Virus record (IMG/VR): IMGVR_UViG_3300016672_000090
Location: 18,739 to 82,738 of that record
DNA length: 64,000 nt
Reading direction: 5' to 3' (one strand)
DNA from: a virus
Taxonomy: Duplodnaviria; Caudoviricetes
Shown: in pieces, positions 6,109 to 37,677 of the stretch
Numbering within the stretch: the stretch's first letter is position 1
Layout of the letters: the number at the start of each line of letters is the position of its first letter
The notes under the pieces: generated by a model
Told to the model about the DNA's origin: nothing
The model's database searches: none
What the model saw: the letters and a program-made list of their open reading frames with translations, nothing else
Translations under genes and position numbers: made by a program

Positions 6109-6776
6109 GCTGCACACTCCAGCCGTGACGCCACGTTGATAATAGGTAGCCGCTGTGCCGCCTCACGACACAAGCGCATATGTTCGGGTGGATAGCCCCA
6201 AATGTTGCCGCCACCTATCTGGCAATCAATCCCGATATAGGCCGGGTCAATCCGCTCACCACGTATCACGTAGTTGCGCATCTGCAACACCAGATCGCGC
6301 AGCGTGCCTCCATGGCTAAACCCCCTCCATTTACCAACGGCCTTAGCGACGATCATGGTCCCGCTCTCATCATGCAGAACTACACACTGCTCAAAGCTAA
6401 GACGCGCCACGCGGTCATTTTTGCGGGAGTAGAAAAAGCACCGGCCATAGCTGGAAATGACCTCTATCAGCCGGTTGGCATACTCACAGCGCAACATCTT
6501 GGCGAACCGAGTTTTTCCATAATCTACCGCGCCCTCAGCCAGCATGACGGCTACCAGCTTTTCGCACAGCTCTACATGGGCAGCTTCCAGATCACTATTC
6601 CCGGTACTGCTGATAAGCAGTTCGGCAACTGTGCATGTCGGCAAGTGCTTGGCGATTAGGCGCATCTGGTCAGTAGCAGTGCAAAGGCGCGCATCGAACT
6701 CAAAGCGAGGGCTTCCAATCATGGCGCCAGCCCAATCAGGCTTTCCGATGGGCTGAGATAGGGATTTATCAGTCAT
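6105..6776 (-). CDS. Phage hypothetical protein
   Basis: 223 aa ORF in operon context. Confidence 0.65.
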   Translation of the reverse strand: MTDKSLSQPIGKPDWAGAMIGSPRFEFDARLCTATDQMRLIAKHLPTCTVAELLISSTGNSDLEAAHVELCEKLVAVMLAEGAVDYGKTRFAKMLRCEYANRLIEVISSYGRCFFYSRKNDRVARLSFEQCVVLHDESGTMIVAKAVGKWRGFSHGGTLRDLVLQMRNYVIRGERIDPAYIGIDCQIGGGNIWGYPPEHMRLCREAAQRLPIINVASRLECAA

Positions 6777-6777
6777 A

Positions 6778-7134
6778 TCAGTGAACCTCTAGATAGATTG
6801 AGCGCCCCGCATAGGGCTCCAGGCGCTTGGCGATCATTGCGGCTACCTGAACAAGACCAGCACGAGCGCTTACAGGCGCCTTACCAATAACGCTATTCCC
6901 CTCAAGCGATTCGACCAGCAGCGCAATAGTGGTATCGCTTGGGGTGATTGCTTTCCCTGATTGCAGATCCTCAGTCAGGGCGCGGGCGGTATCTGCCCAG
7001 CTTTCCAGATCAAAGTTGGCGGGAGGGTTGAAGTCGTACAGGTCGGCCAGAATTTCAGGGCAGGCTAGAAAGCGCATGCGGTGCGCTAAAAGATCCGCTG
7101 ACATCCGGCTGAACATTAGTGGGAGCGAAGGCAT
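6778..7134 (-). CDS. Hypothetical protein
   Basis: 118 aa, first gene after an AT-rich promoter region; AATCGCCAGAGA leader. Confidence 0.6.
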   Translation of the reverse strand: MPSLPLMFSRMSADLLAHRMRFLACPEILADLYDFNPPANFDLESWADTARALTEDLQSGKAITPSDTTIALLVESLEGNSVIGKAPVSARAGLVQVAAMIAKRLEPYAGRSIYLEVH

Positions 7135-7184
7135 TGGGTTTTTCTCTGGCGATTTGGTGAAGACGCAAGATTATCACCGCGACC

Positions 7185-9389: not shown

Positions 9390-9801
9390 CGAGCACCCCC
9401 TAATAATTGGATGCTGATGGCAAGACGAATTTCGGACACAAACGGGCGCTGAGGATCGCAGTCAAAAGACCGGCTCAGCGAAGCTCCGTTAGGGAATTCT
9501 GGAAGGATGCAGAAAAGTTTGCATATCCCGAGCCTGTGATATACTCGGGACGTCAACAAAGTAGATCCCCTTGTCGCCATCTACCGATAGCACAGGGCAA
9601 GCATGGAATGCTTCTGGATTGGTAAGGTTGTTGTTTCATCTGCTACGTCAAAAAGAACCTATTGCCTTGGTCGGGATGCGGTTCTTTTTTTTCGTCTCCT
9701 GTTTGGTGGGAGGTAGGCGGATCACCTCAAAGCGGTGTGCTATATACCATAGCTCTCATCAGACCGTCTAACATTCAAGACTCCCTATACATTTTTGATT
9801 C

Positions 9802-28900: not shown

Positions 28901-29416
28901 CCGCGCCTGAGCCTTAGTGAATAGAAGCCCGGCGGGCGTCATCGTGTACTTGGCCTGATCCAGGTAGGCCGTAACATAGGCCGCCAGCGCAAGCGAGTTG
29001 CCGGTAACGAGAACCCCGCCGTTTTTCTGGGCAACTTTCCCCGTAACCATCTGGCGCAAGAGATTGGCGGGCGATGCTTGCCGGCGGCGCTGTGGTCGGC
29101 GAATAGGTCCACCCAGCAGGCCGCGCAGCTCTAAACCTCGGGCACTGGCGCGAACCTGCTCAATAGGGCTGAGCTTTCCGGCTTCCAGGTTGGCGCGCAC
29201 AGTCAGAAGCTCGGCGCTAAAGCGCATTACCTCTAAAGCGTTATAGAGCTTTGGCGTTGTTTCTTGGATGGCATCCAGCAGCGCGGCATGCAGATCGATT
29301 GATTCGACCGTGGCACGTGCCTGCTCGATAGGATTAAGGCTGCCCGATAATAGCGGCGCATGTAGCTGTAACAGCTTGGCGGCGCTCCGGGCTTGTTCGA
29401 TAGCATGGGAGGGCAT
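25940..29416 (-). CDS. Polyvalent virion protein with C-terminal N6-adenine DNA methyltransferase (DarB-like role)
   Basis: FFPTP, LEPSAGNG (motif I), ILMNPPF (motif IV); three N-terminal IEQxR repeats. Confidence 0.78.
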   Translation of the reverse strand: MPSHAIEQARSAAKLLQLHAPLLSGSLNPIEQARATVESIDLHAALLDAIQETTPKLYNALEVMRFSAELLTVRANLEAGKLSPIEQVRASARGLELRGLLGGPIRRPQRRRQASPANLLRQMVTGKVAQKNGGVLVTGNSLALAAYVTAYLDQAKYTMTPAGLLFTKAQARAAQVLPTTQEILSSGAVLYTYADPDGVSVAFKGDISGIARDLPELKSLMAQEWGPEKFRAVFGEDATPADIEAYQEEQAAIAQRKADNEAADIDKAAAPLREKEAAEALAKVQAEELARVLALQDHLKREEFEKTIGAGTSENPIYQAYLDTLEELPTSGSNAGFLGWAGIRAGEFTRLTKAPVSANKDEYVAYVRQWADEYLSERVKAARAPAEPKNVEPLVITAETPDSTIEGANDEQLQAKLLAVAKDFYRGLSHATKDIARRLEKGTYDRPQAIQALKQNRDYLIERVKAGAESDADIMARMARQYGDKSVAELEAVYEGMGGEIRSSQSDREMNGGGRRTGPAVANEGARQMGQHRLELGIYIKARQEAEPVPVEPPASKPAITGTGTQFISPNVLAEPPEVGAIPVYGSRREFLVLQDGLMVMDDSKRAAIVHAYGKTGPATVRAHAREYNAGRRWILNGEKIVPTDADQDPEPPAAQHEIIEYTTKRGKVLRGIVRTDLAFAEAKAIDAYTWRMNGGYFIREEHLDGATAHIQAAPAPVVLSPEQEVEKAANAERLAEERRQKALGSQVEKLRTVANKAVESGDAGMSQDRTTNTARRAGMAASAIAKASANKADGQTLNNIADAIEVGAGGLLTKLSSRAQLEELQRALRLAQYETDRRLSYSDQLKRKGRPFDDNDLKNITMPSQVTWASRFRDAAKAIGKHSPDGNMRLMAALNKMGARAEQFTMNTEDAAITRRASALLKGTRDSHVLQDPMESIARLERLSRMGITDASTLREAARELLPMMVAKTEESAVKKAERAIIGQKVGIDFFPTPLNVAHRMASLAGITKGTRVLEPSAGNGNLADAAKSAGGEVDVIEISSQLRDILTAKGYTVVDHDFEGFTPEQPYQAILMNPPFSARKDASHIMRAFGMLASGGRLVAIAGEGVFFGTDQKAVAFRAWLDTHKATIEKLEGGTFKDKDLLAQTGANARMIIIKK

Positions 29417-30443: not shown

Positions 30444-30486
30444 ACTCTAAAGCACTAAAACGTATTAACTCTTTAGTGGCTTTGCA
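30444..30486 (-). promoter_or_regulatory. Putative late promoter overlapped by TAACTCT(A/T)(A/T)AG boxes
   Basis: TGCAAAGC; TAGAGT 31 nt after GCAAA; boxes at 30442 and 30466. Confidence 0.5.
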
Positions 30487-30492
30487 CTGTTT

Positions 30493-30948
30493 CTAGTGAG
30501 TGGGAGAGGGATTCATAGCGAGTGCGTGCGCCAGCTTTCTCGCCGCTCCTACCTCAGCCCGCATGCCCTCCAAATCGACAAGGCTTTGATATGCCCGCTC
30601 GCTTGTCTCGGGTGTTGAGTACGCGACCAGAAAGCTATTGATCAGACTTTTGAGAAGGCCAGCCGTATCGTGATTTTTGATGATCGACATAACGGTGAGC
30701 TGCTCAAGGACTACCGCAGGTGTTTGGTTGAAAAAATCGACTCCTAGACGGTCAGCTATATCGGCAAGGCATAAGCCAATCTGCTGGCGGGCCTCGGCTG
30801 GATTCAGGCGGATGCGCTGGCCATCTTCCAACTTACCGGCGCCCCCAAGACGGCGCCCGGCCATTGAACCGTACGGGGTGTGATCCAGTTCGCTCAACTT
30901 GGCCTCAACGGCCTGAGCGATGTCAGTAGCTTTGTCAGTGCTCATCAT
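30493..30948 (-). CDS. Hypothetical protein
   Basis: 151 aa, 2 nt after the upstream stop. Confidence 0.65.
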   Translation of the reverse strand: MMSTDKATDIAQAVEAKLSELDHTPYGSMAGRRLGGAGKLEDGQRIRLNPAEARQQIGLCLADIADRLGVDFFNQTPAVVLEQLTVMSIIKNHDTAGLLKSLINSFLVAYSTPETSERAYQSLVDLEGMRAEVGAARKLAHALAMNPSPTH

Positions 30949-30950
30949 GA

Positions 30951-31433
30951 TTAAGCGGCCTTCTTATTGTCGCGGCGAATGGAGCTTGGGCGCGTAGAAA
31001 CATCGCCGTTTTTGGTCAGTGTGGTTTGATGCGCCTCGACCTTTACCCGGATCGCTTCAAGCTCGTGCGGGGTATGCGCCAGCTCTACAACCCCTTGGGC
31101 GCCTACCGCAAAGGAGATATCACCGGCACCACGCCGCTTACCATGCAGGCGAACGTACTGAACTGTTCCCACGCTCACCTCAACCCGCAGCACGGGAGTA
31201 GCGACTTTCACGCCTCCCACGGGAAACCACACCACATCACCCACAACAATATCGGCGGCAGACTTCTCAGTTAGGGTTTTCATAAACGCGCGCGCAGCTT
31301 GGCCGCGCCGTGTAAGGAACGATCCATTGCCATCGCAGCGAGGACATTCAACAAGGGCACGCATTCCGGTACCGGCGCATTGACTGCACGGACCTGATTC
31401 GAATCGTGGTGCCTGTAATAGGGCCTTTTTCAT
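30951..31433 (-). CDS. Zn-finger (CxxCxGxG-type) hypothetical protein
   Basis: CSQCAGTG...CPRCDGNG; AATCGCCAGAGA leader. Confidence 0.65.
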   Translation of the reverse strand: MKKALLQAPRFESGPCSQCAGTGMRALVECPRCDGNGSFLTRRGQAARAFMKTLTEKSAADIVVGDVVWFPVGGVKVATPVLRVEVSVGTVQYVRLHGKRRGAGDISFAVGAQGVVELAHTPHELEAIRVKVEAHQTTLTKNGDVSTRPSSIRRDNKKAA

Positions 31434-31470
31434 ATCGGTTTATCTCTGGCGATTTTAGTTATTTATGGGG

Positions 31471-31662
31471 TTAGCAGTCGTCGCACATAAAGCGCAACTC
31501 CTTGTAGCAGCGGGGGTCAAGCCCGTGCTTGCCGCAATTCATGGTGCAGGTCTTGGTTTTCGGATCGAACTTGGCCAGGGCAGCCGGGGCAGCTCGCTCC
31601 CACACAAACGCCTGCTCGGGTGCTGGATGGACGGGACGGGGCTTTCGGGCCTTTAAAGCCAT
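31471..31662 (-). CDS. Small Cys-rich hypothetical protein
   Basis: CTMNC...C...C..C; GGAGG RBS. Confidence 0.55.
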   Translation of the reverse strand: MALKARKPRPVHPAPEQAFVWERAAPAALAKFDPKTKTCTMNCGKHGLDPRCYKELRFMCDDC

Positions 31663-31664
31663 AG

Positions 31665-31913
31665 CTATGCACCTCCACTGTCTAGATATGCGCCGTAATG
31701 CTTCACGGAATCAGTTCCTTCATGGTCAGTGTTGTTGCGCTCCAGAATCGCCTCACAGGCCGAACTTTTGCGAATTTCGTCTTTTAGGGAAGCGTCTACC
31801 ACGGTGAAATGCAGATTTCCGTCAATACCGACTAGCACCAGCCCCGCGCGCTTGATGCGCAGTAGTGCAGCCTCAAGCTGCTTTATGGCTTCCAACTGGT
31901 TCTTTTTCATCAT
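31665..31913 (-). CDS. Hypothetical protein
   Basis: 82 aa, coupled ORF. Confidence 0.6.
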   Translation of the reverse strand: MMKKNQLEAIKQLEAALLRIKRAGLVLVGIDGNLHFTVVDASLKDEIRKSSACEAILERNNTDHEGTDSVKHYGAYLDSGGA

Positions 31914-32305
31914 TTACCACCTGGTGGGAGGTCGGTCGTCGACAGCACGTCCCCCAACCACTTCGTTATACGTCCCTGCTCATCTGCGGTTGCCCGATGC
32001 ATGAAAGCACGCACCTCATCGGCAGCCATCTGGACGGCTTCCAGCTTCGTCGCGGCAAACTTCCCCCACTTAGCCAGAGCCTTGTAGCCTTGGCCTGATC
32101 CGTTACGCGAATCCAGGCATGCCGACCATAGCCATTGCTCGCAGTGCGGCACGACCTCGATGCGTACCAGCGGCAACGAGCCCATGGTGCCACCAGCGGA
32201 GCCGTGCGCCCACTTATGGGGCCGCATCAGGTCTAGCGTCATGCTTTGGCCTGAACAGACGGGAGGTGGTGCAGAAAACATATCAAGCTGAATGCCGGGG
32301 GTCAT
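31910..32305 (-). CDS. Hypothetical protein
   Basis: 131 aa, ATGA-coupled to aca1. Confidence 0.6.
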   Translation of the reverse strand: MTPGIQLDMFSAPPPVCSGQSMTLDLMRPHKWAHGSAGGTMGSLPLVRIEVVPHCEQWLWSACLDSRNGSGQGYKALAKWGKFAATKLEAVQMAADEVRAFMHRATADEQGRITKWLGDVLSTTDLPPGGK

Positions 32306-32550
32306 GGATCAACCTTGGCAATGCAAGCCGCCAACTGCTCAAGCGTGTACTGGACGGTGTAGGGAGCAGGCCGAAAAGTGTCCTCGTTCAGGCTCAGGTA
32401 GTAGCGCATAACACGCTCACTCAACCCCAAGGCCTGCGCCACATCAGCCTGACTCATGCCGCATGCCGACACGAGACTGCGCATGTAGGCAGCCTCAGGG
32501 TTGTGCAGGGAAACGTCTGGCTTGGCGCCATGCAGACTTTTGAAATCCAT
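32302..32550 (-). CDS. aca1: Anti-CRISPR-associated HTH regulator Aca1
   Basis: PDVSLHNP..AY.R.L....G.SQ...A..LGLSERVMRYYLS....RPAPYTVQY.LE.LA closely matches the recalled JBD30 Aca1 sequence. Confidence 0.9.
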   Translation of the reverse strand: MDFKSLHGAKPDVSLHNPEAAYMRSLVSACGMSQADVAQALGLSERVMRYYLSLNEDTFRPAPYTVQYTLEQLAACIAKVDP

Positions 32551-32567
32551 AATCGAACCTCTGGTTA

Positions 32568-32593
32568 ATAGAAAACCCCCAATAAAGGGGGTT
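32568..32593 (-). terminator. Terminator-like hairpin upstream of aca1
   Basis: AACCCCC/GGGGGTT stem followed by a T-run on the minus strand. Confidence 0.5.
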
Positions 32594-32610
32594 GCACGTT
32601 CGGCCACCAG

Positions 32611-32862
32611 CTACGCGGCTTCGCTTTCGTCTGCAACAGCGGTGCAGTGCTCAAGGCAGACACAACCGCTCTTGCCTTCAAGCCAGATCACAGCAGAGTG
32701 CCCGCTGAGCACCTGAGCGGCGCTGTTCGACTTGCCACGGAAGGTTTCACCCTCGCCCACAATCTCTTCAAACGATACGGTGGTGCCTTCCGGGTGCTTG
32801 GCGTTCCAGTTGTCGCACTGCTTTTGAAGCTGGGCAGCGGTCGGGCGTTTTGGTGCTGGCAT
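32611..32862 (-). CDS. Candidate anti-CRISPR / anti-defence protein (83 aa)
   Basis: Immediately upstream of aca1; AGGAG RBS. Confidence 0.55.
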   Translation of the reverse strand: MPAPKRPTAAQLQKQCDNWNAKHPEGTTVSFEEIVGEGETFRGKSNSAAQVLSGHSAVIWLEGKSGCVCLEHCTAVADESEAA

Positions 32863-32994
32863 CAGTGAATCTCCTATGGGTTGTACGCACTTGGCCCGCG
32901 CATGGCGGGCCTTAATGTCAATTCCTGTGATGCTCTATACAAGCCGTTTCGCTTTCAAACACCTGCTCAGCGCCAGCCAGGTTAAGCGGAATGT

Positions 32995-33459
32995 TCAGGC
33001 GGTTACGATGATCGGAGCGCCAACGAGCTTGCTTCGATAGTTCTGATTTACAAATTTGCCAGCCTTGTGGGTGTCGACAGCCTTTTGAGCGTCCGCCGCC
33101 AGCCAGTGCGCCGACAGCACGCTCAGCTTGCCCGCTGCGTCATAGCCGACGACTACAGCCATGTACTGGTTGGAAGTACCTCGACTAGCTGTGTCGCCGT
33201 TCGCGAGGGTTACGGTCAGCTTCTTTGCAGTGCGGGTTACTACTGGGACGGACAGATCCGCTTCAAGAGTCCACTCAGCGCGCAAGCCACGCTTATCTGC
33301 TTCGACCTGGAATGCCGGCAGCATTTCGGCGGGCATGCTCTTGCCCAGGGTTTCGATGCGACAGATGCAATCAAGCAAGGTGAGGTCATTCAAAGCGGCG
33401 AAGTACTGGGTGACGTAGGCGGCGCCTATCAGTTGGTCCAGATTCATTGTCTTGGTCAT
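32995..33459 (-). CDS. Candidate anti-CRISPR / anti-defence protein (154 aa)
   Basis: First gene behind an Aca1-type operator-promoter; GGAG RBS. Confidence 0.6.
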   Translation of the reverse strand: MTKTMNLDQLIGAAYVTQYFAALNDLTLLDCICRIETLGKSMPAEMLPAFQVEADKRGLRAEWTLEADLSVPVVTRTAKKLTVTLANGDTASRGTSNQYMAVVVGYDAAGKLSVLSAHWLAADAQKAVDTHKAGKFVNQNYRSKLVGAPIIVTA

Positions 33460-33508
33460 GGCTCAGTGCTCCGCTGCTGTAGGGTGCCGCTGGCTGCGGC
33501 TTGGCGTC

Positions 33509-33537
33509 ACTATAGGCACGACGTGCCTATAGGTCAA
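33509..33537 (-). promoter_or_regulatory. Sigma70 promoter with Aca1-type operator
   Basis: TTGACC-N17-TATAGT; 23-bp palindrome CTATAGGCACG-A-CGTGCCTATAG (33510-33532) covers the spacer. Confidence 0.85.
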
Positions 33538-33605
33538 TAACTCTTTAGCGCTTTAACTCTTTAGAGCAATAACTATATAACGCTAATCCGCTATCGAGCG
33601 CCAAC

Positions 33606-33629
33606 AAAAAGCCCGCACGCGGCGGGCTT
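33606..33629 (-). terminator. Intrinsic terminator after the darA-like gene
   Basis: GCCCGC/GCGGGC stem plus T-tract. Confidence 0.7.
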
Positions 33630-33658: not shown

Positions 33659-36600
33659 CTAGAACGCGCTAGCCGTAGCCTTAAGCGCATAGTCCCGGAA
33701 TGCATCTGAGGCTTCGATAAACAGCTCGCTCAACTTGTCTTCGCCATAGGCCGCATAGATGCGCTCAAGCTCCTTAAGCACATCGCTGGCGCTGCCTAAG
33801 TCGGTAGTGCCGCCAATGATGTCGTCGAGGTAGGACTTTGCCTGTTGTACGGCTTCGTCTTCGTCCGGCTCTTCTGGTGGCGCTGATTGAGGGGGTTGGC
33901 TGAACATGTCGGCCTGATCAATGGCGAATAACCCCTCGCCATACTCCTGCTCAAGTTTTCGGTTAGCGGCGCTCACAATGTCTGTGAAGCTGGCCGGCTC
34001 ATCACCAAACAGGCCAGCGGTCTGCTTGCGGATATTCTCGCTTTCCACGAACTGGGCCATGGCCTTGAATGCGGTGCTCATGCGCTTGGCGCTGCGGTTG
34101 TTGGCGCTGATGAATACCGCCATAGCTGCGATAGCCGGGTCAGTGCCGCCGAACATGTCACCCTGGCGTAGGAACTCGTCCAAGCCCATGCCAGCCTCTT
34201 TTGCCTGGCGCAGCACATTGGTAGCGCCAATGATGGCGTTTACCGCTTCTTGGTTAAGCGACAGCTCCAGGGAGTCGGTGACCTGCTCGCCAGCTTTTTC
34301 GGCGCCGATCCGGTCCTGTTCCTTGGCGCGCATGAAGTCTGGGGCGGCGCTGTTCAATGCTGAGACGATATTTGCAATCTCAGGCTTGGCCTGATCCGCC
34401 GTCATTTCAAGCAAACGGTCATCGGAGTAGGCGCCAGCAAACAGTGCGGCCTGTAGGCGACTGATCAGGCCAGACGTTGGCTTGCCGTCAGTGGTCAAGT
34501 ACTGCGCCGCCTCGGCATCGCCCAGCGATTGCAGGAAGGCAGCCACAAAGTCACGGTTTGCGGCGCTGTTGAGGTCGCCGTCGGTGAGCTTGGCCAGCAT
34601 GGCGGTGTCCAGGCGCTTGGCATCACTGCGGGCCTTCTCGGTAGCAGTCATCGCCAGCTTGTCGTCTTGGTTCGACTCCACAGCGAACTCCACGCGATTC
34701 ACTTCTGTTTTCCGCACCCGCACCAGCACCGGCGCCTTCATACGTTGGATCTTGGCCGGGTCGACGGCGAAGTACTCCGCGTTTTCCAGAAGCCACTCCC
34801 GGTATTCGTCGGCCTGGCCAATACGGTAGGCCTCACGGATCGCCATGGCGCGACCGTTGCCCGATTCGACCACACGGTCAGCACCAACGATAGGGGCGCC
34901 GCTGTCGGCACGCTGGGTGCGGCCAAGGCTGTCCGGGTCAAGGTTGCGTGCGGTTTTCTGCACCCATGCCTGTGACGTGGTACGCGCTCGGTCACGCGGC
35001 TGAATTTCAGGCGGGTATTCCGGGTTTACGGTGCCGTCAGTCTCGTGGCTGATGATCAGGTTCTTCGCCTCGATCACCTTGAAACCGGTCACGACCTTGG
35101 TGCCCTTGGCAGTTTTTACGGTGTTGTCGCGGCCTTCGGCTTCAATGGTGCCAGTGTCTTCGTTGGTGTCAGGCTCTACGGCGGGTACCGCTACGGGCTC
35201 GGGGGGCATTTCAACCACAGCGGAGGCCTGATCAGCTCGCCACTTCTCAATAAACAGCAGCGCGGTACCGAGGGCTGTACCCACGGCAGACTCAATGCCA
35301 TTTTCTAAAGTGCTCGACCCCATGCTTTCCTGGCCGTTAACGCCAGGCTTGAGGATGTAGGCAGTCAACATGCTCCCGCCAGCAGTTGGGCGCAGTCGAA
35401 TGCCGTAACCGTCTGCGGCAATAGCTGTAAAGCCGTCCGGATCGATGTCGCTAACGAACTCGGCAGGCACCAGGCGCCGCGCTACCTCATTGAGGGTTTC
35501 GGCTTTTGGCTCCGGTACAACTTCCGGTTCGACTGCGGCACGCATATCGGCAATATTATCGGCGCCCGAGGCAATGACACGCTCGGCAATGGCAACGCCC
35601 TCGGCTTTGCTTGCAGCGGTTGCCAAGTGGGTACTGGCCCAGCTCACGCCCCATTCACCGGTGTCTACATACTTCGTCTTGGCGACAGTCACCGGCCCGG
35701 CGGGGCCTTGAAGAATTACCGGCGACTCATCTACAGCGGACGCGGCGGATGGATCGACAACGCCTGACAGGTCGACGACTTCACCCACACGCGCCTCATA
35801 GTCGTCAGTGTTGAGTAACTTCGTCATGTACTGCTTGCCGTCTTTGTCGAAGTAAACGTTTTCAGAGCCCACACTGATTACGGTGGCCATCCCTAGCGCG
35901 GCTACTTCGGCGTAGTCCTCAAGGATGCTGCTGGACACACTCACAGCGGGCACCGATTCCGGCTCTACGACTACAGGTGGTTGCACTGGCTCGACAACTG
36001 GCGTCGCCTTCTTCTGCTCAAGCTGGGCGGTCAAATCGAGGATCTGCGCGTCCAGGCTGGCCAACTGCCCGGTTTTTGCTTCTACAAGCGCCTTTTGCTC
36101 ATCGAGCGCGGCAGTGCTGGCGGCTTTGTTCTCGTTCGCCTTGATGAACTTCGCGCTGTTCTTCTGAATCAGCGCCATGATGCGGCGTGCCACGATACGC
36201 GGGTTGATGTCCTGGCCACGCTCAGGCGCCACCACGGCGGTGATGTCCTTCTTGTTCTGTACCCACTTCCAGCTGATCAGTTCGTCGGATGGCGTCAGCT
36301 TGTTGGGCGTGCTGTCTGGGTTGTGGAAGAACACGCTAACGCTCTGGCCATCGTCCATGCCAAATAACATGGCCACCTGAGTGGTGCCCTTGCTCTTGAA
36401 TGGCTTGCTCACTTCGACGGTGAGGGCTTTCACGTCACTGCTTGCCGCCTGCATCACACGCAGGAGCTGGCCAGCCTTGCGTTCGAACTGCTTGTACTCG
36501 ATCACCATGGCGTCGAGCATTTCCCCGCTTTCGCCCAGGTGCTCGGTGATATCGGTCATGGTGGCGCTATCCATCAGCAGGCCGCTAGGATCTGCTCGGC

Positions 36601-37240
36601 GCATTTCATACAGCACCGCGCCCACGGTTTCGCCCACCGGGAGGTTATCGGCGCCCCAGCGCGTCAGTACATCAGTCATGCTCAAAGCCTCATCTTTTGG
36701 AATATTTGGTAAGTCAGGGGATAGGGGCTTGTTTAGATCCCCGTGCCTGAGCCAGTACTTGAACTGCTTGATGGTGCAGGCCGCGACACTGCCAAGGCCG
36801 GACCAGCCCTTTTCGTAGGAATTCATGTAGGCGGTGCAGGCCTGTACCTGATCGGTGAAGCCAAGCATTACCTTATGCTCGTCGAATACCGGCTCATCGA
36901 ATGAGCGGTCGACCTTCTTCACCTGATTGATCACGTACACGCACAGGCTCTCGGGCGCCGGGCCTACAAACACGTCCACAGCGTCCCCGTCTGCACCCTT
37001 GGTCCCGTTCACATAGCCGTAGTGCGCCATACAGGTGATTGACCATGGTTTGCCGTCTTGCTTGCCACGGCGCGACTGGAACATAGGGGTTTCGATGGTG
37101 ATCCGCAGGCCATGCATGCGAAAGCTGCCCTTGGCGTAGTTCCCGGCGCGGATCTGTGCGGGTGTGGGCTCTGCGCGAGAACCCATCCCGAAAGCGCCAG
37201 CATGGGCGGCGCTTTGGAGTTTGCTAAAAAGGTCGGACAT
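33659..37240 (-). CDS. darA: DarA-like polyvalent virion protein (PPase-like + DarA_N + DdrB-type ParB-like domains)
   Basis: YGYVNGTKGADGDAVDVFVG (PPase-like), FGMDDGQSVSVFFHNPD (DarA_N), QPRDR...GAPIVG..VESGNGR (ParB-like). Confidence 0.72.
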   Translation of the reverse strand: MSDLFSKLQSAAHAGAFGMGSRAEPTPAQIRAGNYAKGSFRMHGLRITIETPMFQSRRGKQDGKPWSITCMAHYGYVNGTKGADGDAVDVFVGPAPESLCVYVINQVKKVDRSFDEPVFDEHKVMLGFTDQVQACTAYMNSYEKGWSGLGSVAACTIKQFKYWLRHGDLNKPLSPDLPNIPKDEALSMTDVLTRWGADNLPVGETVGAVLYEMRRADPSGLLMDSATMTDITEHLGESGEMLDAMVIEYKQFERKAGQLLRVMQAASSDVKALTVEVSKPFKSKGTTQVAMLFGMDDGQSVSVFFHNPDSTPNKLTPSDELISWKWVQNKKDITAVVAPERGQDINPRIVARRIMALIQKNSAKFIKANENKAASTAALDEQKALVEAKTGQLASLDAQILDLTAQLEQKKATPVVEPVQPPVVVEPESVPAVSVSSSILEDYAEVAALGMATVISVGSENVYFDKDGKQYMTKLLNTDDYEARVGEVVDLSGVVDPSAASAVDESPVILQGPAGPVTVAKTKYVDTGEWGVSWASTHLATAASKAEGVAIAERVIASGADNIADMRAAVEPEVVPEPKAETLNEVARRLVPAEFVSDIDPDGFTAIAADGYGIRLRPTAGGSMLTAYILKPGVNGQESMGSSTLENGIESAVGTALGTALLFIEKWRADQASAVVEMPPEPVAVPAVEPDTNEDTGTIEAEGRDNTVKTAKGTKVVTGFKVIEAKNLIISHETDGTVNPEYPPEIQPRDRARTTSQAWVQKTARNLDPDSLGRTQRADSGAPIVGADRVVESGNGRAMAIREAYRIGQADEYREWLLENAEYFAVDPAKIQRMKAPVLVRVRKTEVNRVEFAVESNQDDKLAMTATEKARSDAKRLDTAMLAKLTDGDLNSAANRDFVAAFLQSLGDAEAAQYLTTDGKPTSGLISRLQAALFAGAYSDDRLLEMTADQAKPEIANIVSALNSAAPDFMRAKEQDRIGAEKAGEQVTDSLELSLNQEAVNAIIGATNVLRQAKEAGMGLDEFLRQGDMFGGTDPAIAAMAVFISANNRSAKRMSTAFKAMAQFVESENIRKQTAGLFGDEPASFTDIVSAANRKLEQEYGEGLFAIDQADMFSQPPQSAPPEEPDEDEAVQQAKSYLDDIIGGTTDLGSASDVLKELERIYAAYGEDKLSELFIEASDAFRDYALKATASAF

Positions 37241-37264
37241 AGAAGCGGCTCCCTGAAAGTAGCC

Positions 37265-37306
37265 ACGATACCGCCCGTTGCCCCCGCTCCCGGCTGACGG
37301 TTTGCG
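37265..37306 (-). promoter_or_regulatory. Putative late promoter (darA-like)
   Basis: CGCAAACC; TATCGT 30 nt after GCAAA. Confidence 0.7.
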
Positions 37307-37321
37307 CCAAATCGCAGGCAC

Positions 37322-37348: not shown

Positions 37349-37366
37349 AGGGATGAAGCTACCACC

Positions 37367-37615
37367 TTAGAATTCAGGCGTTGGTGCATTGTCGATCAGC
37401 TGCCCAATGACTTCGGACACAGTGCAACGGTTCTTAACGGCGATGAGTCGCAGTTTCTGATCCTGCTCCGCTGTGATGTAGGAGTTAAGACGCTCTTTGG
37501 CTCCCAGCTTGATTACTTTCGGCCTTTGGCTCGGACGGCCCGCCTCGATAGTATCGGCTGGTTTCACATCAGAGGGCGCACGTGCCGCGCGCGGCTTAAT
37601 GGTTAAATCACTCAT
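37367..37615 (-). CDS. Ribbon-helix-helix partition protein (ParG-like)
   Basis: Flexible N-tail then RLNSYIT...KLRLIA...TVSEVIGQLID; follows parA. Confidence 0.75.
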   Translation of the reverse strand: MSDLTIKPRAARAPSDVKPADTIEAGRPSQRPKVIKLGAKERLNSYITAEQDQKLRLIAVKNRCTVSEVIGQLIDNAPTPEF

Positions 37616-37677
37616 GGCTTACCTTTAGCGTTAAGACGTTTTCAGCATGATAGTGCATGTAACGCTTTAGCGTCTAA

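What the first reader, a model, noticed from the sequence alone, without database searches (positions are those of the whole stretch)
32302..33537. Aca1-controlled operon with two uncharacterised anti-CRISPR candidates
Seen: a near-consensus sigma70 promoter (TTGACC-N17-TATAGT, minus strand) whose spacer is covered by a 23-bp palindrome with core AGGCAC-N3-GTGCCT; a 5'UTR hairpin (GCCGC-AGCCA-GCGGC, 33486-33500); ORFs of 154 and 83 aa; then an 82-aa HTH protein. Established (recalled): the HTH is near-identical in motif to Aca1 of Pseudomonas phage JBD30. Aca1 represses acr promoters through AGGCAC...GTGCCT inverted repeats between -35 and -10, and Aca2 also binds 5'UTR stem-loops. Inference: the two ORFs, which match no Acr I can recall, are new anti-CRISPR or other anti-defence proteins.
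Basis: partly seen in the sequence, partly recalled or inferred. Interest (0 to 1): 0.92.

Follow-up and report, generated by a model that had tools for sequence, protein, structure and literature searches.

The report
Aca1-regulated operon with unknown cargo
A P1-like Pseudomonas phage-plasmid carries a strong promoter locked by an Aca1-type repressor site that drives two small proteins of no known family; they are reasonable but untested candidates for inhibitors of bacterial immunity, and such loci are already known by the hundred.

Summary
The sequence features are all real. A 10/12 sigma-70 promoter (33537-33509, minus strand) has a 23-bp palindrome in its spacer. The palindrome's half-sites are identical to JBD30 operator IR2 (TAGGCAC-N3-GTGCCTA). 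The 82-aa HTH is an Aca1 homologue: 55% identity, PDB E 4e-18, and all base-contacting residues kept. The regulatory reading is therefore well supported by homology.

The cargo reading is not shown. ORF1 (154 aa) folds confidently into two domains, matches no family or fold, and is very rare. It occurs next to aca1 only at this one syntenic locus. ORF2 (83 aa, helix plus small beta-barrel) is common on Pseudomonas plasmids and F116-like phages that show no aca1 in the contexts inspected. In F116 it is fused to a CsrA domain, which suggests a role outside CRISPR.

The element is a P1-like phage-plasmid. The operon lies between two Dar-type polyvalent genes, and relatives swap cargo cassettes here, so an anti-defence role is plausible. 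My estimates:
- Anti-defence of some kind: about 0.55.
- Anti-CRISPR specifically: about 0.35.

The 5'UTR hairpin sits where Aca1's published RNA motif lies but lacks its two-tier stem. First-stage readers of this scan had already noted this stretch, its flanking genes and the dispersed boxes.

The parts
33604..33629 (-). Intrinsic terminator (AAGCCCGC-loop-GCGGGCTT followed by TTTGTT) of the upstream 1220-aa InPase-DarA_N-ddrB/ParB polyvalent gene. It marks the 5' boundary of the operon.
   Evidence: Read directly.
33538..33564 (-). Two CTAAAGAGTTA boxes (33554-33564 and 33538-33548) directly abutting the -35. They are candidate sites for a second regulator.
   Evidence: 5 copies in the window against 0.41 expected, and 0 of 100 shuffles reach 5. 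Other copies lie at 30466, 37660 and 29233.
33509..33537 (-). Sigma-70 promoter TTGACC-N17-TATAGT.
   Evidence: 10 of 12. The promoter is conserved in relatives L001, L002, L008, L010, L040 and L064.
33510..33532 (-). Aca1 operator: 23-bp palindrome CTATAGGCAC-GTC-GTGCCTATAG. Its half-sites are identical to JBD30 IR2.
   Evidence: IR2 is 5'-ATTAGGCACAATGTGCCTAAT-3' with half-site GGCAC (PMC8633003). The JBD30 sequence was read.
33486..33500 (-). 5'UTR hairpin GCCGC-AGCCA-GCGGC. It starts 12 nt after the operator and about 8 nt after the -10, so just downstream of where the transcript should start, and ends 26 nt before the ATG.
   Evidence: It has the same offset, the same GCC/GGC lower stem and a similar 3' flank as the JBD30 Aca1 RNA motif (PMC13551039). 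It is not found by covariance model R1.
32995..33459 (-). ORF1 (P0001, 154 aa). It has an acidic 3-helix N-domain (7-63), a linker (64-72) and a basic alpha/beta C-domain (73-153, pI 10).
   Evidence: (pLDDT 93.9).
32893..32911 (-). Intercistronic hairpin GGCCCGC-CATGC-GCGGGCC after ORF1. It has no T tract.
32611..32862 (-). ORF2 (P0002, 83 aa, pI 5.2). It has an N-terminal helix plus a small beta-barrel. It belongs to PHROG 9165.
32574..32593 (-). Terminator-like hairpin AACCCCC-TTTATT-GGGGGTT followed by TTCTATT, between ORF2 and aca1. It is probably a leaky attenuator.
   Evidence: The same hairpin follows ORF2 homologues in L001, L002, L008, L040 and L064.
32302..32550 (-). aca1 homologue (P0003, 82 aa).
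   Evidence: Residues equivalent to JBD30 R22, S31, Q32, S42, R44, V45, R47, Y48, Y49 and R59 are kept. R33 is replaced by A.
31910..32305 (-). 131-aa ORF (P0004). Its start overlaps the aca1 stop (ATGA), so the operon continues past aca1.
   Evidence: No family was found. Homologues occur in L008 and L009.

Best explanation
This is the head of an Aca1-autorepressed operon in a roughly 83-kb P1-like Pseudomonas phage-plasmid. It is a variable cassette array of small accessory genes lying between two Dar-type polyvalent (anti-restriction-like) genes.

Proposed mechanism:
1. On entry, the near-consensus sigma-70 promoter fires and produces ORF1 and ORF2 at a high level.
2. The hairpin before aca1 lets through only part of the transcripts. 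Aca1 and the translationally coupled genes behind it therefore accumulate more slowly.
3. An Aca1 dimer then binds the palindrome in the promoter spacer and shuts the promoter.
4. The CTAAAGAGTTA boxes at the -35 may add control by a second element-encoded regulator.

ORF1 and ORF2 are most likely counter-defence or host-takeover proteins whose targets are unknown.

Basis of each step:
- Shown by homology: the identity of Aca1, its operator, and the operator's position in the promoter.
- Inferred: repression itself, attenuation at the hairpin, and any function of the cargo.
For: Regulator and operator:
- Aca1 homology: PDB E 4e-18 and 55% identity to JBD30 Aca1. The residues shown by mutagenesis to be needed for IR2 binding (R44, R47, R59, Y48) are conserved (against PMC8633003).
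- The operator half-sites are identical to IR2 and lie in the promoter spacer.
- The promoter, operator and aca1 are conserved in six related loci while the genes between them vary. Arrays seen are P0001 / Zn-ribbon / P0002 / 56-aa or 230-aa cassettes, and L064 and L040 start with unrelated 138-aa and 297-aa genes.

Element and neighbourhood:
- It is a P1-like phage-plasmid: tail sheath, PmgG-like protein, portal, baseplate, ParA and DarA_N. The record is an 82.7-kb virus record.
- The flanking genes are an InPase-DarA_N-ddrB/ParB protein and a polyvalent protein that matches methyltransferase PHROGs and whose relatives carry an LPD1 domain.
- A homologue of the P0001 C-domain sits in an operon directly behind a DarA_N protein on another element, L069.

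Other:
- Both cargo proteins are real proteins. P0001 has pLDDT 93.9 and P0002 has 72 homologues.
- Published base rate: many Aca-regulated genes are acr or other anti-defence genes (PMC13551039).
Against: - There is no functional data of any kind.
- No known Acr or anti-defence family was found anywhere in the array or in its relatives.
- P0002 is mostly found away from aca genes and is fused to CsrA in F116.
- P0001's linkage to aca1 comes from one syntenic locus only. Its separate domains occur in phage accessory regions without aca1.
- aca1 is not the terminal gene, unlike classic acr-aca1 operons.
- The hairpin before aca1 might be a full terminator, in which case aca1 would need a promoter that I did not find.
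- The host is an environmental Pseudomonas. From general knowledge, not tested here, CRISPR-Cas is uncommon in such species.
Confidence: 0.6

Rival explanations
1. One reading: at least one of ORF1 and ORF2 is a true anti-CRISPR protein that blocks a Pseudomonas type I CRISPR-Cas effector or Cas3. ORF1, at the first position, is the better candidate.
For: - The genes sit at the canonical position between an Aca1-controlled promoter and aca1. In the Mu-like JBD30-type loci retrieved with the same operator, this slot holds AcrIF1-type genes.
- The cassettes vary between relatives, as in acr loci.
- P0001 has a narrow distribution and modular domains, which is typical of arms-race proteins.
Against: - There is no similarity to any Acr in Pfam or the PDB, and none to the AcrIE8/AcrIF15-24 sets.
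- A weak structural row to a type I-C entry (8g9s_A, Z 3.9, rank 38) is within noise.
- P0002 is widespread without aca.
- Aca-regulated operons also hold many non-Acr genes (PMC13551039).
- The neighbourhood is anti-restriction (Dar-like), not CRISPR-specific.
Confidence: 0.35
2. ORF2 is not an immune inhibitor. It is a post-transcriptional or host-takeover module, for example acting with or on the Rsm/CsrA, Hfq or Rho RNA machinery, and is carried here as a general early gene of Pseudomonas mobile elements.
For: - The ORF2 family is homologous to the C-terminal domain of F116 gp24 (hhalign 97%, E 4e-11). The N-terminal 51 residues of gp24 are a CsrA domain (Pfam E 5e-22).
- The predicted fold is a helix plus a small beta-barrel. 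Its weak best matches are Hfq/Sm-like, Tudor and the Rho inhibitor YaeO.
- It is present in early or leading regions of 150 plasmid and 38 phage records, with no aca in the contexts inspected.
- It also occurs as an N-terminal module on diverse longer proteins.
Against: - All fold matches have E above 0.1, so the fold assignment is weak.
- A fusion partner does not by itself define a function.
- The complex prediction of ORF2 with an RsmA dimer could not be collected.
- Within this phage-plasmid clade ORF2 stays inside the Aca1-controlled array.
Confidence: 0.25
3. The cargo genes serve establishment or maintenance of the phage-plasmid rather than counter-defence. Possible roles are a nucleic-acid-binding protein working with the Dar/virion proteins, or lysogeny and partition control. 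Aca1 is then simply the local repressor of a strong early promoter.
For: - The basic C-domain of P0001 (pI 10) suggests nucleic-acid binding.
- The operon sits next to parA and an RHH gene and shares CTAAAGAGTTA boxes with them.
- aca1 is followed by five more coupled genes of unknown function.
- Per PMC8633003, some bacterial Aca1 homologues are not in acr-aca1 operons.
Against: - Essential maintenance genes would not be swapped between close relatives as these cassettes are.
- P0001 is absent from relatives L064 and L040, and P0002 from L010.
Confidence: 0.15

Closest known systems
acrIF1-aca1 operon of Pseudomonas phage JBD30 (Aca1 with IR1/IR2 operators)
   Same: - Homologous repressor (55% identity) with all base-contact residues kept.
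- Identical operator half-sites TAGGCAC/GTGCCTA with a 3-bp spacer, lying in the promoter spacer.
- Small cargo genes upstream of aca1.
- Homologous 5'UTR layout: the hairpin starts at the same offset and the two leaders share the GGCGCC..AAC flank.
   Different: - There is only one operator and no IR1.
- The host element is a P1-like phage-plasmid, not a Mu-like phage.
- The cargo has no known Acr.
- aca1 is followed by further coupled genes.
- A terminator-like hairpin precedes aca1.
- R33 is replaced by Ala.
- Extra CTAAAGAGTTA boxes lie at the -35.
Aca1 5'UTR RNA motif (Feussner et al., NAR 2026, PMC13551039)
   Same: A hairpin just downstream of where the transcript should start, ending about 20-26 nt before the first start codon. 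It has a GCC/GGC lower stem.
   Different: - The published motif has a 3-bp lower stem, up to two unpaired bases and a covarying 3-bp upper stem. Here there is a single 5-bp stem (4 bp in relatives).
- A covariance model built from JBD30-type motifs does not find it.
Phage P1 Dar anti-restriction system and polyvalent proteins (DarA_N, ddrB-ParB and LPD domains)
   Same: The operon is embedded between DarA_N/ddrB-ParB and MTase-type polyvalent genes. A P0001 C-domain homologue follows a DarA_N gene on another element (L069).
   Different: - The cargo proteins share no detectable homology with Dar proteins.
- They are driven by a sigma-70/Aca1 promoter. Earlier first-stage notes, which I did not check, place late promoters on the flanking Dar-type genes.
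F116 gp24 'regulatory protein' (PHROG 5527): a CsrA domain plus a C-terminal domain
   Same: The C-terminal domain is homologous to ORF2 (hhalign probability 97%).
   Different: ORF2 stands alone, lacks the CsrA domain, and sits under Aca1 control.

Membership tests
Aca1 (anti-CRISPR-associated HTH repressor) | Sequence homology to JBD30 Aca1 | tested here: met
   phmmer against the PDB: 7vjn, 7c0g and 7fa3 at E 4e-18 to 9e-18. BLASTP: 55% identity over 65 aa, E 1e-24. Pfam has no Aca1 model, and JBD30 Aca1 itself gives only weak HTH hits.
Aca1 (anti-CRISPR-associated HTH repressor) | DNA-contacting residues (R44, V45, R47, Y48, R59; backbone contacts R22, S31, Q32, R33, S42, Y49) | tested here: met
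   The alignment, read against PMC8633003, shows all residues conserved except R33, which is replaced by A. R33 makes a phosphate contact only.
Aca1 (anti-CRISPR-associated HTH repressor) | Cognate inverted repeat GGCAC-N3-GTGCC overlapping its own operon's promoter | tested here: met
   The site is unique in the 82.7-kb record and lies between the -35 and -10.
Aca1 (anti-CRISPR-associated HTH repressor) | Binds the operator and represses the promoter | not testable with these tools
   This needs an EMSA or ITC and a reporter assay.
acr-aca operon (contains a validated anti-CRISPR gene) | At least one gene homologous to a known Acr | tested here: not met
   - Pfam gives no hit for P0001, P0002, P0004 or 10 cargo proteins of relatives. 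AcrIF1 serves as a positive control at E 2e-57.
- PDB sequence search gives nothing.
- Signature motifs are absent from the supplementary files of PMC7648647, described as including AcrIE8/AcrIF15-24 homologue sequences.
- dbAPIS and Anti-CRISPRdb were not available.
Anti-CRISPR protein (ORF1, ORF2) | Inhibits a CRISPR-Cas system | not testable with these tools
   This needs plaque or transformation assays.
Anti-CRISPR protein (ORF1, ORF2) | Homologues recurrently linked to aca genes in independent contexts | tested here: not met
   - ORF1 is linked to aca1 only at the same syntenic locus. Homologues of its separate domains elsewhere lack aca1.
- ORF2: the plasmid and F116 contexts inspected hold no Aca1 homologue and no Aca1 operator.
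Aca1 5'UTR RNA motif | Hairpin just downstream of the predicted transcription start, ending about 20 nt before the start codon | tested here: met
   The hairpin spans 33500-33486. It starts 12 nt after the operator, as in JBD30, and ends 26 nt before the ATG.
Aca1 5'UTR RNA motif | Two-tier stem: conserved 3-bp lower stem and covarying 3-bp upper stem | tested here: inconclusive
   The GCC/GGC lower stem is present but the upper stem is reduced to 1-2 bp. Model R1 gives no hit at E up to 10, but R1 rests on only 9 near-identical sequences.
P1-like phage-plasmid | Myovirus structural genes together with plasmid partition genes and Dar-type genes | tested here: met
   PHROGs for tail sheath, PmgG-like protein, portal and baseplate. 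ParA, DarA_N, ddrB-ParB and InPase. The record is an 82.7-kb virus record, 96% complete.

The most novel reading that the evidence does not exclude
ORF1 founds a new two-domain counter-defence family. An invariant acidic 3-helix N-domain would act as an adaptor and is recombined with exchangeable effector domains; here the effector is a basic alpha/beta domain that also occurs alone or behind DarA_N genes. The Aca1-controlled array would be a hairpin-delimited cassette system. Each cargo gene carries its own 3' stem-loop, with covarying stems, a conserved TTAATT-type loop and a conserved junction. These hairpins would both grade expression along the operon and act as exchange points for shuffling anti-defence genes between phage-plasmids.
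Probability: 0.25. Interest if true: 0.7.

Novelty: new member of a known kind. Interest (0 to 1): 0.45.

Why it matters
If either cargo protein inhibits CRISPR-Cas or another defence, it would add a new inhibitor family from a little-studied class of element, P1-like phage-plasmids of environmental Pseudomonas. It would also show that Aca1 control extends into Dar-type anti-restriction islands.

The locus is a compact, directly testable case:
- one promoter,
- one operator,
- two short genes.

The modular build of ORF1 and the hairpin-delimited cassettes could show how such arrays are assembled. If the cargo proves inactive against defences, the CsrA link of ORF2 points instead to manipulation of host RNA regulation by mobile elements.

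Tried and rejected
DNA and protein similarity searches:
- DNA similarity to deposited plasmids and phages: none.
- tblastn of ORF1 against plasmids: none.
- ORF1 in 185,579 species genomes: none.
- Peptide-motif search of the paper library found no paper.

Fold searches for ORF1:
- Foldseek against the PDB gave nothing at E <= 0.001.
- VIA-align wide gave a best row of Sda (Z 5.7, 42 residues) and other helical bundles, all within noise. The C-domain was barely tested because the N-domain fills the list.
- BFVD gave only uncharacterised ~80-aa phage proteins.
- The ESM Atlas gave no usable hit.

Fold search for ORF2: Foldseek against the PDB gave only weak rows (Sm, Tudor, SH3, YaeO), all with E above 0.1.

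Library checks:
- NCBIfam is not a valid Acr test, because it does not recognise AcrIF1.
- PADLOC: none.
- Rfam: nothing relevant.

Rejected leads:
- My by-eye match between the C-terminal tail of P0132 and the tail of the 1220-aa polyvalent protein was not supported by BLASTP.
- Covariance model R1 of the JBD30-type RNA motif does not hit the window hairpin.
- The stability of the 5'UTR is not above shuffles.

Tests without a usable result:
- Sequencing runs: the stretch occurs in freshwater, wastewater, soil and plant metagenomes.
- I did not test ORF1 or ORF2 against Cas proteins in silico. The host's Cas proteins are unknown and only one complex job was available.
Full report
**What is in the sequence**

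All features below are on the minus strand, in this order:
- The 1220-aa gene at 33659-37321 ends in a strong hairpin with a T tract (about 33629-33604).
- Two CTAAAGAGTTA boxes follow at 33564-33554 and 33548-33538.
- The promoter is TTGACC (33537-33532), 17 nt, TATAGT (33514-33509). It scores 10 of 12 and is the best of two promoter-like sites in 5.5 kb.
- The spacer is filled by the perfect palindrome CTATAGGCAC-GTC-GTGCCTATAG (33532-33510).
- The exact 17-bp form TAGGCAC-N3-GTGCCTA occurs once in the whole 82.7-kb record and never in the reversed control.
- The leader holds GCCGC-AGCCA-GCGGC (33500-33486), then a GGAG Shine-Dalgarno and the ATG of ORF1.
- ORF1 (154 aa, 32995-33459), ORF2 (83 aa, 32611-32862) and the HTH gene (82 aa, 32302-32550) each have a good Shine-Dalgarno.

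Two things were missed. A terminator-like hairpin (AACCCCC-TTTATT-GGGGGTT followed by TTCTATT, 32593-32574) lies between ORF2 and the HTH gene. The HTH stop also overlaps the start of a 131-aa ORF, so the operon runs on.

**The regulator**
- The HTH protein matches the three solved Aca1 entries at E 4e-18 to 9e-18. It is 55% identical to JBD30 Aca1.
- Liu et al. (PMC8633003) give the JBD30 operator IR2 as ATTAGGCACAATGTGCCTAAT with half-site GGCAC. They show that R44A, R47A and R59A abolish binding and that Y48A weakens it.
- All of these residues, and also V45, R22, S31, Q32, S42 and Y49, are kept here. Only R33, a phosphate contact, is Ala.
- The window's half-sites TAGGCAC/GTGCCTA are identical to IR2, and the 3-bp spacing is the same.
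- I read JBD30 itself. There IR2 also sits just before the -10.
- Membership in Aca1 is met on every feature that can be tested in silico. Binding and repression remain inferred.

**The leader hairpin**
- Feussner et al. (NAR 2026, PMC13551039) report that Aca1 binds an RNA hairpin directly after the transcription start of 207 acr-aca1 operons. The hairpin has a conserved 3-bp lower stem, up to two unpaired bases and a covarying 3-bp upper stem. It ends about 20 nt before the start codon. The K_D for the JBD30 leader is about 61 nM.
- I retrieved 54 viral loci with the operator, of which about 23 also have an Aca1 homologue, and aligned 19 distinct leaders.
- In JBD30-type leaders the motif is GCC-A-GCC-ACAAC-GGC-GA-GGC. 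One compensatory change in the upper stem is visible, in L057.
- The window hairpin begins at exactly the same offset, 12 nt after GTGCCTA. It shares the GCC/GGC pairs. In the relatives it also shares the 3' flank GGCGCC..AAC with JBD30.
- It is nevertheless a single 5-bp stem (4 bp in relatives) and shows no covariation.
- Its leader is no more stable than shuffles.
- A covariance model built from nine JBD30-type motifs finds JBD30 at E 4e-8 but does not find the window hairpin or those of its relatives.
- I call it a positional and partial sequence homologue whose function is open.

**The element**
- The window is part of an 82.7-kb IMG/VR record judged 96% complete.
- PHROG hits identify a tail sheath, a PmgG-like head protein, portal, baseplate, tail fibres and an integrase.
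- Pfam identifies ParA and two DarA_N proteins. One of these is the 1220-aa InPase-DarA_N-ddrB/ParB protein just upstream of the operon.
- The 1158-aa protein downstream matches methyltransferase-type polyvalent PHROGs, and its relatives carry LPD1.
- This is a P1-like phage-plasmid, and the operon lies inside its Dar-type island.
- A near-identical copy of ORF1 is recorded in Pseudomonas sp. PAMC 29040.

**ORF1**
- No hit in Pfam, NCBIfam, PHROG, PADLOC or PDB sequences.
- The word-index search found 15 proteins.
- A profile search of 1.84 billion representatives found only 26 clusters.
- There are none in 185,579 species genomes.
- The AlphaFold model is confident, with pLDDT 93.9. It shows a 3-helix N-domain (7-63), a low-confidence linker and an alpha/beta C-domain (73-153).
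- The N-domain is acidic and nearly invariant. The C-domain is basic, with pI 10.
- The two domains occur separately and in other combinations. The N-domain is found alone or with other C-termini. The C-domain is found alone (80-110 aa) or behind other N-termini.
- No solved or viral predicted structure matches beyond noise.
- Full-length homologues always sit at the same place: just after the polyvalent gene, behind the same promoter and operator, and upstream of aca1.
- That is one locus inherited by descent, not repeated independent association.
- Elsewhere, one C-domain homologue (P0132) sits in an operon right behind a DarA_N protein near ParA. Other domain homologues lie in early or accessory regions of phages without aca1.

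**ORF2**
- It matches PHROG 9165 (E 3e-13) and the C-terminal half of PHROG 5527.
- It has 72 homologues in the large protein set.
- tblastn finds it on 150 plasmid records, of which 137 are Pseudomonas, and 38 Pseudomonas phage records.
- In the contexts inspected it lies in early or leading-type regions. These are after parAB and before an MvaT gene on pPA15W-NR, near repA on an 81-kb P. atacamensis plasmid, and in the early region next to the repressor gene in F116. None of them has an Aca1 homologue or an Aca1 operator.
- The model (pLDDT 76) is a helix plus a small beta-barrel. Its best matches are weak: Hfq/Sm-like, Tudor and YaeO.
- F116 gp24 is a CsrA domain (Pfam E 5e-22) followed by an ORF2-like domain (hhalign 97%, E 4e-11).
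- The domain also heads several longer proteins. One of these is fused to the 230-aa cassette that is its neighbour in L002.
- This pattern fits a promiscuous module of mobile-element early genes, possibly tied to RNA regulation. It does not fit a dedicated Acr well.

**The array in relatives**

Six related loci keep the promoter, operator, leader and aca1 but differ in cargo:

| Locus | Cargo between the promoter and aca1 |
|---|---|
| L001 | ORF1, 97-aa Zn-ribbon, ORF2, 56 aa |
| L002 | ORF1, 97-aa Zn-ribbon, ORF2, 230 aa |
| L008 | ORF1 N-domain with another C-terminus, a 93-aa gene, ORF2, a 60-aa gene |
| L010 | ORF1, Zn-ribbon, a Cys-rich ORF; no ORF2 |
| L064 | unrelated 138-aa gene, Zn-ribbon, ORF2 |
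| L040 | unrelated 297-aa gene, several small genes, a second Aca1-type promoter, more genes, ORF2-like |

None of ten cargo proteins tested has a Pfam or NCBIfam family apart from a weak DUF7167 hit.

Every cargo cassette is followed by a perfect 5-8-bp GC hairpin. Stems covary, for example GCCGC/GCGGC, GCCTC/GAGGC and CCCCC/GGGGG. The loop is usually TTAATT-like, and the junction up to the next Shine-Dalgarno is conserved. After aca1 the genes overlap and no such hairpins occur.

I read these hairpins as leaky attenuators or RNA-stability elements that grade expression. They may also be the junctions at which cassettes are exchanged. This reading is inference.

**Second layer of control**

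CTAAAGAGTTA occurs five times in the window against 0.41 expected. Two copies touch the -35 of this promoter. The others lie between parA and a small RHH gene (37660), before the next operon (30466), and at 29233. A second regulator encoded by the element probably acts here as well. A first-stage note had flagged the same boxes.

**Verdict**

The regulatory half of the finding is sound and matches a known system closely. The cargo half is a legitimate lead, not a result.
- In its favour are the canonical position, the cassette variability, the Dar-type neighbourhood and the published base rates.
- Against it are the lack of any homology to known inhibitors, the single-locus linkage of ORF1, and the wide aca-free distribution and CsrA fusion of ORF2.

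My estimates:
- The Aca1 circuit works as described: about 0.85.
- The cargo is counter-defence of some kind: about 0.55.
- At least one ORF is an anti-CRISPR: about 0.35.

Feussner et al. already report some 450 genes under predicted Aca1/Aca2 control in RefSeq and IMG/VR, with fewer than half annotated. This locus is therefore a new member of a known kind. It is made somewhat more interesting by its phage-plasmid setting, the modular ORF1 and the hairpin-delimited cassettes.

Noticed in passing
window 32893-32911 and 32574-32593; L001:6482-6499, 6828-6847, 7145-7163; L008:5825-5844, 6130-6149; L010:6013-6032; L040 and L064 likewise: Every cargo cassette between the Aca1 promoter and aca1 ends with a perfect 5-8-bp GC hairpin. 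Stems covary between cassettes, the loop is usually TTAATT-like, and the junction that follows (TGCCAGTACC..AGGAG) is conserved. After the first cassette, GCCCGGA-GCGA-TCCGGGC is kept whatever the gene. No such hairpins occur after aca1. They may be attenuators, RNA stabilisers or cassette-exchange junctions.
   Followed up: partly
window 33538-33548, 33554-33564, 30466-30476, 37660-37670 (minus strand), 29233-29243 (plus strand): A dispersed CTAAAG(A/C)GTTA box occurs 5 times against 0.41 expected. Two copies abut the -35 of the Aca1 promoter, and others lie beside parA and the small RHH gene (37365-37614) and before the next operon. It is a candidate site for a ParG-like RHH protein or a prophage repressor. 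The first ten bases of ATTGCTCTAAAGAGTT resemble, from memory, the P1 C1 operator consensus.
   Followed up: partly
L006:3209-3580 (phage F116 gene 24) and L006:2962-3174 (gene 25): F116 gp24, annotated 'regulatory protein', is a CsrA/RsmA domain (1-51) fused to an ORF2-like domain (60-123). The neighbouring gp25 is a stand-alone ORF2-like protein.
   Followed up: partly
L040:7806-7850 and about 9640-9690: A related 85.8-kb phage-plasmid carries two tandem promoters with Aca1-type operators in one array. The second was inferred from the read-through translation and differs slightly from the first. This fits the reported multi-operon control by Aca proteins.
   Followed up: no
P0154 (424 aa, from an 82.8-kb contig); compare L002:6878-7882: In one relative the ORF2-like gene is fused in frame with the 230-aa cassette that follows it in L002, plus a further C-terminal part. 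This hints that the two cassettes work together.
   Followed up: no
L069:4850-6747: On an unrelated ParA-bearing element, a DarA_N protein (295 aa), an 87-aa ORF and P0132 form an overlapping three-gene operon. P0132 (248 aa) carries an ORF1 C-domain in its middle. PBECR2 and UmuDC genes lie nearby.
   Followed up: partly
window 30493-32305, minus strand: Downstream of aca1, five ORFs (131, 82, 63, 160 and 151 aa) are overlapping or nearly abutting. The 160-aa one has CxxC pairs with a weak Anti-TRAP/DnaJ zinc-finger match. It and the 151-aa one are conserved in relatives L001, L002 and L064, unlike the cargo upstream of aca1.
   Followed up: no
ORF2 alignment A2 (columns for H55, H72, C73, plus C16 and C67 in most): Nearly invariant His and Cys residues in the ORF2 family could form a metal site. 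They are replaced in the three most distant members.
   Followed up: no
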